Shown: in pieces, positions 3,001 through 5,390 of the stretch
How positions within the stretch are numbered: the stretch's first letter is position 1
Layout of the letters: the number at the start of each line of letters is the position of its first letter
Virus record (IMG/VR): IMGVR_UViG_2671180473_000013
DNA from: a virus
Taxonomy: Duplodnaviria; Heunggongvirae; Uroviricota; Caudoviricetes
Strand: one strand, 5' to 3'
DNA: 5,390 nucleotides
Position numbers: made by a program

Positions 3001-5390
3001 CAAAAGGTCGGGTAGCCGCGCTGACAGACAATACGCAGGGGGCAGCAGGTCTTGAGTTATACGAGGTGTATAACAACGGATATCCAACAGCGTATGGAAA
3101 TATCATTCACCTGAAAGGGATGACAGCCGTTGGCGAAGGTGAGTTACTCATCGGCTGGAGTGGTACAAGCGGTGCTCATGCTCCGGCATTTATTCGTTCA
3201 CGACGGGATACGACCGACGCAAACTGGTCGCCGTGGGCGCAGCTTTACACCTCGGCTCATCCTCCTGCAGAGTTTTATCCAGTCGGTGCACCAATCCCGT
3301 GGCCATCAGATACCGTTCCGTCTGGTTATGCCCTGATGCAGGGGCAGACTTTTGACAAATCTGCTTACCCGAAACTTGCAGCCGCTTATCCGTCAGGCGT
3401 GATCCCTGATATGCGTGGCTGGACGATTAAGGGCAAGCCCGCCAGTGGTCGTGCCGTATTGTCTCAGGAACAGGATGGCATTAAATCGCACACCCACAGC
3501 GCCAGCGCATCCAGTACGGATTTGGGGACGAAAACCACATCGTCGTTTGATTACGGCACTAAATCCACGAATAACACCGGGGCGCATACGCACAGTCTGA
3601 GCGGCTCTACAAGTTCAGCTGGGGCCCACCAACATAGTCAGACTGGGCCCAGAACGAATAGCGGGAGTCAACCTACTGGAATGTTTCCGGCAGGGAGTAC
3701 TCAAGTTAGCGGGACTAATCAGGTTGGTATCAGTGGCTCATTAACCAGTGGCACCTCCCAATGGGTAGGTAAATCATCTTCAGAAGGAAACCATACACAC
3801 TCACTGTCCGGCACAGCAGCATCTGCGGGTGCACACGCGCATACTGTCGGTATTGGTGCTCATACGCACTCTGTTGCGATTGGTTCACATGGACACACCA
3901 TCACCGTTAACGCTGCTGGTAACGCGGAAAACACCGTCAAAAACATCGCATTTAACTATATTGTGAGGCTCGCATAATGGCATTCAGAATGAGTGAACAA
4001 GCACGGACCATAAAAATTTATAACCTGCTGGCCGGAACTAATGAATTTATTGGTGAAGGTGACGCATATATTCCGCCTCATACAGGTCTGCCTGCAAACA
4101 GTACCGATATTGCACCGCCAGATATTCCGGCTGGTTTCGTGGCTGTTTTCAACAGTGATGAGTCATCGTGGCATCTCGTTGAAGATCATCGGGGTAAAAC
4201 GGTTTATGACGTGGCTTCCGGCGACGCGTTATTTATTTCTGAACTCGGCTCATTACCGGAAAATGTCACCTGGTTATCCCCGGAAGGGGAGTTTCAGAAG
4301 TGGAACGGCACAGCCTGGGTGAAGGATACGGAAGCAGAAAAACTGTTCCGGATCCGGGAGGCGGAAGAAACAAAAAACAGCCTGATGCAGGTAGCCAGTG
4401 AGCATATAGCGCCGCTTCAGGATGCTGTGGATCTGGAGATCGCAACGGAGAAAGAAACCTTGTTGCTGGAAGCTTGGAAAAAGTATCGGGTGTTGCTGAA
4501 CCGTGTTGATACATCAACTGCACCGGATATTGAATGGCCAGTAGCACCTATAGGGTAAATTCGTAATGATTACCTAAATACGTTATTCTTTTGTTAAAAA
4601 AGTGATTTTGCTATAGGTAGGGAGTATGTTCTTGGATTAAGAATAAAAAATCGCCATGAAAGAGCTTCATGGCGAGTACATAAACGTACAAAATGTGATG
4701 AAAGTAGAGTGGCGTAAGCCACTATATTAAGATATGACAATAGCGAAGAAAAGTAAATAACATTTTATGGACGTTTAATTGTTAATTATAAAAACTAGAG
4801 TGCCCGATATTGTTTATCTTGCTTTAAAATAATGTACTCAAACCAAATTTTTGAGCTAAAAGCTCAAATAATATAAATGCAATAATAATGTTTAATAAGA
4901 CAATTAGCTTGCTTTGTATTTTCATTTCGGAATACTGTTAAGTAACTTTGATGACCCTAACAATAGATCGGAATTTTCTTAGAGTCAATGGTCACTGTTT
5001 TTGCTTGCAAAGCAAATGTTTTGGTGGTTATAAGTCGTCTTAATATAGTCACGCATGCAACTTGTTCCATGCGGAGATTAAAGATTGGAATATAACGCGA
5101 AGATGGAATTAAATTACATTTGCAATAATTAATTTATTATTACTCAATAATTACCGATATTATTATTGTAAATTAATCATTAGAATGCAAAAAGAAATGT
5201 AACGGCAAAATAAGAGGACGATAGCTGAGAAAAAAGCGTGCTTTCCCAATCTGGGGCAAATCACGTCTGAATGACACCTGAAAACAGGTGGTAGCCTCAA
5301 GAAGGCTGGTGATGCTGCCAACTTACTGATTTAGTGTATGATGGTGTTTTTGAGGTGCTCCAGTGGCTTCTGTTTCTATCAGCTGTCCCT

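What the first reader, a model, noticed from the sequence alone, without database searches (positions are those of the whole stretch)
5299..5390. IS1 inserted at the end of the AT-rich region
The IS1 left inverted repeat begins at 5308, immediately after the AT-rich region. From established knowledge IS1 makes 8-9 bp target duplications and favours AT-rich regions, so the 9 bp at 5299-5307 (AAGAAGGCT) are the candidate duplicated target. IS1 may have disrupted a cargo gene or be part of a composite element.
Basis: partly seen in the sequence, partly recalled or inferred. Interest (0 to 1): 0.4.

Follow-up and report, generated by a model that had tools for sequence, protein, structure and literature searches.

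The report
IS1 with adjacent deletion in prophage
The last 83 bases of the window are the left end of an ordinary IS1 insertion sequence in the cargo region of a Shigella sonnei-type lambda-like prophage, but in every complete relative it has no target duplication and replaces 550-741 bp of non-coding phage DNA, so it is an IS1-associated deletion and not a clean insertion.

Summary
IS1's 23-bp left inverted repeat starts at 5308, the insA start codon (GTG) is at 5363, and all 83 bases match complete 768-bp IS1 copies exactly.

The window ends inside IS1, so I read the far end in relatives. Window 2654-5390 is 100% identical to six of the ten Shigella sonnei-type loci retrieved and 99.7-99.9% identical to the other four. 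In nine of the ten, IS1 is followed by AATTGGGTG, not AAGAAGGCT. Seventy-nine E. coli genomes share the same left junction, and in the four read at base level the right flank is CTTATTGGC.

The IS1-free phages mEp332 and ev099 show what is missing: 741 bp in S. sonnei and 550 bp in E. coli. This DNA is non-coding and AT-rich and holds a tRNA-like 3' half. No gene was disrupted and no second IS1 lies nearby.

One fixed left junction with right endpoints at increasing distances fits IS1-promoted adjacent deletion or IS1-IS1 recombination. In S. sonnei the IS1 right end sits 15 bp upstream of a YdeO-like AraC regulator gene that is itself frameshifted. This is ordinary and already known in kind.

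The parts
5308..5390 (+). Left end of IS1. The 23-bp left inverted repeat is at 5308-5330 and the insA start (GTG) is at 5363, with the first 9 codons following. The window ends inside the element.
   Evidence: 83/83 identical to a complete 768-bp IS1. Pfam InsA zinc ribbon, HTH_Tnp_IS1 and DDE_Tnp_IS1 on the downstream ORFs in S. sonnei loci. RefSeq annotation 'IS1A family transposase, programmed frameshift'.
5299..5307 (.). AAGAAGGCT, the 9 bp that abut the IS1 left end. This was the proposed target duplication. It is not repeated at the IS1 right end in any relative examined.
   Evidence: right flanks AATTGGGTG, CTTATTGGC or ACGGTGCTG. (no simple-insertion junction found in any collection).
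5275..5307 (+). Two short hairpins (CACCTG-AAAA-CAGGTG and AGCCT-CAAGA-AGGCT) directly left of the junction. The second hairpin includes the 9-bp flank.
   Evidence: minimum free energy -14.7 kcal/mol for 5255-5307, z-score -1.95, 8 of 200 shuffles fold at least as well. This is weak and its function is unknown.
4559..5307 (.). AT-rich (31.5% GC) non-coding DNA downstream of the tail fibre assembly gene. It corresponds to the 'b-region'/cargo part of the prophage, cut short on its right by IS1.
   Evidence: Collinear at about 96.5% identity with phages mEp332 and ev099 up to exactly position 5307.
3977..4558 (+). Tail fibre assembly gene (tfa, 193 aa). This is context for the IS1 site.
   Evidence: Pfam Caudo_TAP.
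982..3977 (+). Side tail fibre gene. It appears split only because of a run of 70 N at 2584-2653. This is context.
   Evidence: Complete S. sonnei genomes have one 1027-aa ORF here.
407..889 (+). lom (Ail/Lom outer membrane protein gene), shortened to 160 aa. This is context.
1..336 (+). 3' end of the tail tip gene J. This is context.

Best explanation
The window is the right (tail) end of a lambda-like prophage of Shigella sonnei type, which in complete genomes lies next to intS, yfdC and mlaA. Its last 83 bases are the left end of a complete 768-bp IS1 lying between the tail fibre assembly gene and a YdeO/GadX-like AraC-family regulator gene.

This IS1 is not a clean insertion. An ancestral IS1 entered the AT-rich non-coding cargo DNA with its left end at 5307/5308. 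DNA to the right of the element was then lost in steps, while IS1 and its left junction stayed in place. The first step removed 550 bp; this state is kept in E. coli prophages. A further 191 bp was lost in the S. sonnei lineage, 741 bp in all, which brought the IS1 right end to 15 bp upstream of the regulator's start codon. In one S. sonnei-type genome a much larger loss reaches a fimbrial usher gene.

The most likely mechanism is IS1-promoted adjacent deletion: intramolecular transposition from the right end, which keeps the IS and removes one copy of the target duplication. Recombination with a second, directly oriented IS1 gives the same product.

Shown: IS1 identity, the junction sequences, the absence of a duplication, what DNA is missing, and the endpoints at increasing distances. 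Inferred: the order of events, the mechanism, and that the window's own unseen right end looks like that of its near-identical relatives.
For: IS1 identity: 83/83 bases match, with the insA start present.

Source: the exact 160-aa Lom protein is encoded in S. sonnei-type chromosomes. CP000038 and HE616528 are Ss046 and 53G from my own knowledge of those accessions. Window 2654-5390 is 100% identical to six of those ten loci.

S. sonnei-type junctions: all ten loci read AAGAAGGCT | 768-bp IS1 (767 bp in L017). Nine continue with AATTGGGTGGATGAT-ATG and one (L015) with ACGGTGCTG in an usher gene.

E. coli junctions: 79 genomes carry the identical left junction. 73 carry the full left flank-IS1-right flank structure. 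In the four read at base level (L001, L003-L005) the right flank is CTTATTGGC.

IS1-free reference: in phages mEp332 and ev099, AAGAAGGCT occurs once and is followed by 550 bp before CTTATTGGC and by 741 bp before the sequence matching AATTGGGTGG.

No simple-insertion intermediate: 0 of 5426 E. coli genomes, 0 GTDB representatives, 0 JGI metagenome contigs. The positive control for the left junction found 3 metagenome contigs.

Recombination activity: in strain STEC409 this IS1 has recombined with a copy in htrE. The tail end and the regulator are now 2.25 Mb apart, and the E. coli-type right junction sits in the same intS-argW-yfdC-mlaA context as in S. sonnei.

Literature: missing target duplications are attributed to adjacent deletions or IS-IS recombination (PMC11708052).
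Against: The window stops 83 bp into IS1, and its exact source assembly was not recovered. It differs from the retrieved S. sonnei-type loci at 4 scattered positions, plus 11 positions beside an N-run, so its own right junction was not observed.

The end product cannot distinguish one-ended adjacent deletion from recombination between two IS1 copies.

The IS1 copies in E. coli L001 and S. sonnei L008 differ at 7 of 768 positions. This could mean gene conversion or independent origin.

129 E. coli genomes have IS1 placed 191 bp upstream of the regulator gene (the E. coli-type spacing; CTTATTGGC was read in two of the three I inspected and CTGATTGGC in the third), against 79 with the left junction. 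Which junction is the original one is therefore not settled.
Confidence: 0.8

Rival explanations
1. Simple IS1 transposition into AAGAAGGCT with a 9-bp target duplication. The far end lies just outside the window.
For: IS1 normally makes 8-9 bp duplications and prefers AT-rich DNA (established knowledge). AAGAAGGCT occurs once at the corresponding site of the IS1-free phages, so it could have been the original target of the ancestral event.
Against: None of the 17 loci read through the element has the duplication. None of 5426 E. coli genomes, the GTDB representatives or the JGI metagenomes has the predicted right junction. All near-identical genomes lack 741 bp.
Confidence: 0.03
2. Two separate IS1 copies inserted in direct orientation, one at 5307/5308 and one further right. 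RecA-dependent recombination between them then removed the DNA between them together with one IS1 copy.
For: This gives exactly the observed product: one complete IS1, no duplication and lost DNA. This IS1 demonstrably recombines with other copies: STEC409 has an inversion with the htrE copy, and E. coli genomes have varied left flanks. IS1 copies with different sequence variants sit at the same right junction, as expected for hybrid elements. S. sonnei and many of these E. coli carry tens of IS1 copies (up to 68 places per genome).
Against: It needs an extra IS1 insertion within 550 bp, and another within 191 bp, for each step. No genome with two IS1 copies flanking the interval was identified. 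One E. coli record (H124) does show two IS1 copies near the regulator gene, but I did not inspect it.
Confidence: 0.3
3. Independent IS1 insertions at the same nucleotide (an insertion hot spot beside the hairpins) in the E. coli and S. sonnei prophages, each followed by its own deletion.
For: The IS1 copies differ at 7 of 768 positions between L001 and L008. The prophages sit at different chromosomal sites: ybhB-bioA in E. coli versus intS-yfdC in S. sonnei. Two small hairpins abut the site.
Against: Same nucleotide, same orientation and the same flanking module. The E. coli-type right junction also occurs in the intS-argW context in STEC409, which links the two forms. IS1 divergence (0.9%) is lower than that of the flanks (about 2.5%). 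The hairpin signal is weak (z-score -1.95).
Confidence: 0.05

Closest known systems
IS1 (IS1 family; IS1A/IS1R-type copies of E. coli and Shigella)
   Same: Identical 23-bp terminal repeat and identical first 83 bp. In relatives the element is 768 bp long and carries insA and insB with a programmed frameshift.
   Different: This copy lacks the 8-9 bp target duplication that marks a fresh insertion.
IS-promoted adjacent deletions. For IS1 this is the classical observation of deletions that start at the IS end and keep the IS (from my own knowledge: Reif and Saedler 1975). IS-associated deletions without duplications in the Lenski long-term evolution lines are described in PMC11708052.
   Same: A complete IS is retained. 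The deletion starts exactly at the IS terminus. No duplication is present. Several endpoints at increasing distances share one fixed junction: 550 bp, 741 bp and a much larger loss.
   Different: The events here are natural and old, inferred by comparing genomes. Dependence on the transposase has not been shown. Recombination between two IS1 copies would give the same product.
Prophage-borne AraC-like regulators of the YdeO/GadX type, such as PsrA, PsrB and PatE of E. coli O157:H7 (PMC10877973)
   Same: The gene just right of this IS1 encodes a 247-aa AraC-family protein whose best match is YdeO (E = 9e-43), followed by GadX. It lies in the cargo region downstream of the tail fibre genes of a lambda-like prophage, as described for the psr genes.
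   Different: The score of 146.7 bits is far below the YdeO family cut-off of 348, so it is not YdeO itself. I did not compare it with the PsrA, PsrB or PatE sequences. The gene lies outside the window, and it is frameshifted in all nine S. sonnei-type loci that carry it.

Membership tests
IS1 insertion sequence | 23-bp terminal inverted repeat beginning GGTGATGCTGCCAACTTACTGAT | tested here: met
   Window 5308-5330. Identical to the annotated IS1 in L001 and in all S. sonnei-type loci.
IS1 insertion sequence | 768-bp element with a matching inverted repeat at the other end | tested here: inconclusive
   The window ends 83 bp into the element. In the relatives read at base level, IS1 is 768 bp (767 bp in L017) and ends in ...GAGTCATTACC.
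IS1 insertion sequence | insA and insB reading frames joined by a programmed -1 frameshift to give the transposase | tested here: inconclusive
   Only the insA start and 9 codons (5363-5390) lie in the window. Relatives carry Pfam Zn_ribbon_InsA, HTH_Tnp_IS1 and DDE_Tnp_IS1 and the RefSeq note 'programmed frameshift'.
Simple (fresh) IS1 insertion | 8-9 bp direct duplication of the target on both sides | tested here: not met
   The left flank is AAGAAGGCT. The right flank is AATTGGGTG, CTTATTGGC or ACGGTGCTG. The predicted junction is absent from three collections.
Simple (fresh) IS1 insertion | The flanks are contiguous in IS-free relatives | tested here: not met
   In phages mEp332 and ev099 the two flanks are 550 bp (E. 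coli form) or 741 bp (S. sonnei form) apart.
IS1 composite transposon | A second IS1 copy bracketing a cargo segment | tested here: not met
   A BLAST search with IS1 finds one copy per 20-kb S. sonnei-type locus, which covers about 15 kb to the left and 4.7 kb to the right of the element. More distant copies were not examined.
IS-promoted adjacent deletion | The IS is retained intact, the deletion starts exactly at one IS terminus, and the other junction is unchanged | tested here: met
   The same left junction occurs in 79 E. coli genomes and in all S. sonnei-type loci. The right endpoints lie at +550 bp, +741 bp and in an usher gene, and IS1 is complete in each.
IS-promoted adjacent deletion | Dependence on the transposase and independence from a second IS copy | not testable with these tools
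   This needs genetics, or the discovery of intermediates. Recombination between two IS1 copies gives the same product.

The most novel reading that the evidence does not exclude
The stepwise deletions were not neutral decay. By bringing the IS1 right end to 15 bp from the start codon of the YdeO-like regulator, they removed its AT-rich upstream region and placed the gene under read-through or hybrid-promoter transcription from IS1. On this reading the conserved IS1 acts both as an expression switch for a prophage cargo regulator and as a recombination hub that moves this module between prophages and drives megabase inversions.
Probability: 0.07. Interest if true: 0.3.

Novelty: already known. 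Interest (0 to 1): 0.08.

Why it matters
It matters little beyond annotation. It is one of the many IS1 copies of a Shigella-type genome, and the same junction is already present in published complete genomes.

The useful points are practical:
- The 9 bp next to an IS end cannot be taken as a target duplication without seeing the other end.
- This copy marks a small deletion in prophage cargo DNA upstream of an acid-resistance-type regulator gene that is itself decayed in S. sonnei. This fits the known genome erosion of Shigella.
- Short-read contigs typically break inside such IS copies, which is probably why the window stops there.

Tried and rejected
- Extending the window directly. An exact scan of GTDB representative genomes for the 39-base junction found nothing. 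The exact source assembly was not recovered, so I used exact-protein look-up of the truncated Lom instead.
- Searching for a simple-insertion intermediate with a duplication of 8-10 bp. There were no hits in E. coli complete genomes, GTDB representatives or JGI metagenomes. The three metagenome contigs that carry the left junction all end inside IS1, so they say nothing about the right end.
- Searching for the S. sonnei-type right junction in E. coli. All listed matches were in two pieces and still contained the 191 bp, so the contiguous form was not seen in the rows shown.
- Looking for a restored gene across the joined flanks. None was found: no ORF of 70 aa or more lies in the missing DNA.
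- Scanning the missing DNA for a tRNA gene with ARAGORN. None was found. Rfam gives only partial tRNA-like and tmRNA T-arm-like hits, consistent with a tRNA 3' fragment. From memory it resembles the 3' half of tRNA-Ser(CGA), serU; I did not test this.
- Looking in STEC409 for a duplication around the IS1 copy in htrE that recombined with this one. None was evident.
- A hot-spot role for the hairpins at 5275-5307. The folding signal is weak (z-score -1.95), so I did not pursue it.
- The weak MicC-like Rfam hit at 4637-4764 (22.8 bits against a threshold of 90, E = 0.91). I treated it as chance similarity to a terminator.

Full report
**1. What the window is**

The window is the tail end of a lambda-like prophage.
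- 1-336: the 3' end of the tail tip gene J.
- 407-889: an Ail/Lom outer membrane gene.
- 982-3977: a side tail fibre gene.
- 3977-4558: a tail fibre assembly gene.
- 4559-5307: 749 bp of AT-rich DNA (31.5% GC) without ORFs of 60 aa or more.
- 5308-5390: the last 83 bases, which are IS1.

These assignments rest. The tail fibre gene looks split only because the window holds a run of 70 N at 2584-2653.

**2.

- Positions 5308-5330 read GGTGATGCTGCCAACTTACTGAT, the IS1 terminal repeat.
- The insA start GTG is at 5363, followed by codons for ASVSISCP.
- The 83 bases are identical to the start of a complete 768-bp IS1 annotated by RefSeq as an IS1A-family element with a programmed frameshift.

**3. 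Where the window comes from**

No complete E. coli genome matches better than about 97% over the whole window. The exact 160-aa Lom protein is encoded in chromosomes that include CP000038 and HE616528. From my own knowledge of those accessions these are Shigella sonnei Ss046 and 53G; the tool printed no organism names.

Window 2654-5390 is 100% identical to six of the ten loci retrieved and 99.7-99.9% identical to the other four. Window 1-2579 differs at 4 scattered positions and at 11 positions directly beside the N-run, inside the repetitive part of the tail fibre gene. The source is therefore a S. sonnei-type genome, probably a short-read draft. That would also explain why the sequence stops a few dozen bases into a multi-copy IS (inference).

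In these genomes the prophage end is followed by a phage integrase gene, yfdC and mlaA. E. coli STEC409 has the same context, annotated as intS, tRNA-Arg, yfdC and mlaA.

**4. The far end of IS1**

All ten S. sonnei-type loci read AAGAAGGCT | IS1 (768 bp; 767 bp in L017).
- In nine, the right flank is AATTGGGTGGATGAT followed by the ATG of an AraC-family gene.
- In the tenth (L015), the right flank is ACGGTGCTG inside a fimbrial usher gene.

Among complete E. coli genomes:
- 79 carry the identical left junction.
- 73 carry the whole left flank-IS1-right flank structure.
- In the four read at base level (L001, L003-L005), the right flank is CTTATTGGC.

No locus has AAGAAGGCT, or any 8-9 bp repeat of the left flank, on the right. 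A synthetic query for the simple-insertion right junction found no full-length match in 5426 E. coli genomes. Pattern scans allowing duplications of 8-10 bp found nothing in GTDB representative genomes or JGI metagenomes. The left junction itself is present in three metagenome contigs, all of which end inside IS1.

**5. What is missing**

Two sequenced phages, mEp332 and ev099, are collinear with the window up to exactly position 5307 and have no IS1.
- In mEp332 (locus L006), AAGAAGGCT lies at 8792-8800.
- CTTATTGGC starts at 9351.
- The sequence matching the S. sonnei right flank starts at 9542.

IS1 therefore replaces 550 bp in the E. coli form and 741 bp in the S. sonnei form. The S. sonnei form equals the E. 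coli form minus a further 191 bp (L001 12112-12302).

The missing DNA is 37-39% GC. It has no ORF of 70 aa or more and no annotated gene in mEp332. ev099 has one 55-aa hypothetical ORF across the site.

The missing DNA contains a fragment resembling the 3' part of a tRNA. ARAGORN finds no complete tRNA gene. The same fragment sits directly beside an integrase gene in another E. coli prophage, so it looks like a relic attachment site (inference).

Ninety-nine E. coli genomes carry the uninterrupted, IS1-free version.

**6. Mechanism**

The pattern has four parts: a complete IS1, no duplication, one constant junction, and deletions on the other side ending at increasing distances (550 bp, 741 bp, and in L015 a much larger loss reaching an usher gene). 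This is the pattern expected for IS-promoted adjacent deletion. For IS1 that is classical knowledge, which I recall rather than tested. PMC11708052 names adjacent deletions and recombination between identical IS copies as the frequent causes of missing duplications.

Recombination between two directly oriented IS1 copies gives the same product and cannot be excluded. This IS1 does recombine with other copies:
- In STEC409 the tail end plus IS1 is joined to htrE at 1.41 Mb. The rest of the yad region plus IS1 is joined to the regulator gene at 3.66 Mb.
- Other E. coli genomes have the E. coli-type right junction with unrelated left flanks: a helicase gene, and a frameshifted porin gene annotated ompC in a ybcK-quuD prophage region that I take, from memory, to be DLP12.

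IS1 lies 191 bp upstream of the regulator gene in 129 genomes, against 79 with the left junction. I therefore cannot say which junction is the original insertion site.

Independent insertion at a hot spot is unlikely. Position, orientation and module are identical, and STEC409 links the E. coli-type right junction to the S. sonnei chromosomal context. However, the two IS1 copies differ at 7 of 768 positions, so it is not excluded.

**7. Consequences**

No gene was interrupted. The gene to the right of IS1 encodes a 247-aa AraC-family protein. Its best match is YdeO (E = 9e-43, 146.7 bits, well below the family cut-off of 348), followed by GadX. It lies in the position where prophage regulators such as PsrA and PsrB are described (PMC10877973). 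I did not compare the sequences, so that resemblance is only a lead.

In S. sonnei the gene has lost all but 15 bp of its upstream DNA. It also carries a frameshift near codon 137 in all nine loci that have it, so it is a pseudogene there.

There is no second IS1 within the 20-kb loci, so nothing suggests a composite transposon.

**8. Verdict**

The finding is an ordinary IS1-associated deletion in a decaying Shigella prophage, already present in published genomes. The remaining uncertainty is that the window's own right junction lies outside the window and is inferred from near-identical genomes.

Noticed in passing
window 2584-2653: A run of 70 N lies inside the repetitive, alanine/serine-rich part of the side tail fibre gene. 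Complete S. sonnei-type genomes have 168 bp here and one 1027-aa ORF. Eleven of the 15 differences from those genomes cluster at 2524-2564, next to the gap. This looks like an assembly gap or a masked repeat and not a real frameshift.
   Followed up: partly
window 407-889: The lom gene encodes only 160 aa, against 199 aa in E. coli relatives. Homology to L001 breaks at about 883, and about 83 bp spanning the lom 3' end are absent. All ten S. sonnei-type loci retrieved encode this same 160-aa protein, which was the query used to find them.
   Followed up: partly
window 4320-4518 (+): A full-length Rfam match to the small-RNA family IS009 (RF02111) scores 218 bits against a threshold of 117. It lies entirely inside the 3' part of the tail fibre assembly gene.
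   Followed up: no
window 4641-4675 and 4850-4868 (- strand): Two terminator-like hairpins with T-runs lie on the minus strand of the AT-rich region (2 found against 0.5 expected). One overlaps a 48-aa minus-strand ORF (4594-4740) and a weak, sub-threshold MicC-like hit. They could end a short leftward transcript. I did not examine this.
   Followed up: no
L008 15779-16521 (just right of IS1 in S. sonnei-type genomes): The YdeO/GadX-like AraC regulator gene is frameshifted near codon 137 in all nine S. sonnei-type loci that carry it. It is intact (247 aa) in E. coli and in phage mEp332.
   Followed up: yes
L006 about 8912-8972; L002 about 11210-11275: A fragment resembling a tRNA 3' half lies in the DNA that IS1 removed. 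From memory it resembles tRNA-Ser(CGA), serU. In E. coli 2013C-3264 the same fragment lies directly next to an integrase gene, so it is probably a relic phage attachment site.
   Followed up: partly
L019 and L021 (E. coli STEC409, 3.66 Mb and 1.41 Mb): The two sides of this IS1 site lie 2.25 Mb apart, each joined to one half of the yad fimbrial usher gene htrE. This indicates a large inversion through IS1-IS1 recombination. No target duplication was evident for the htrE copy.
   Followed up: partly
L015 15764 onward (LR213458): In one S. sonnei-type genome the IS1 right end abuts the C-terminal part of a fimbrial usher gene. It is followed by a chaperone gene, three fimbrial genes, a DUF2544 gene, an Smr-domain gene and a methyltransferase gene, which looks like the yfc region. 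The regulator, integrase, yfdC and mlaA are therefore missing there.
   Followed up: no
L010 and L016 (53G and Ss046), corresponding to window 4100-4164: These two reference genomes lack about 65 bp inside the tail fibre assembly gene that the window and the other eight retrieved S. sonnei-type loci retain. In 53G the called product is cut to 150 aa, and in Ss046 no tfa gene was called.
   Followed up: no
L008 16563-17294; L006 10342-11073: Remnants of IS3-family transposase genes (Pfam rve_3 and HTH_Tnp_1) lie between the regulator gene and the integrase. They are also present in the phages mEp332 and ev099, so they travel with the cargo module.
   Followed up: no
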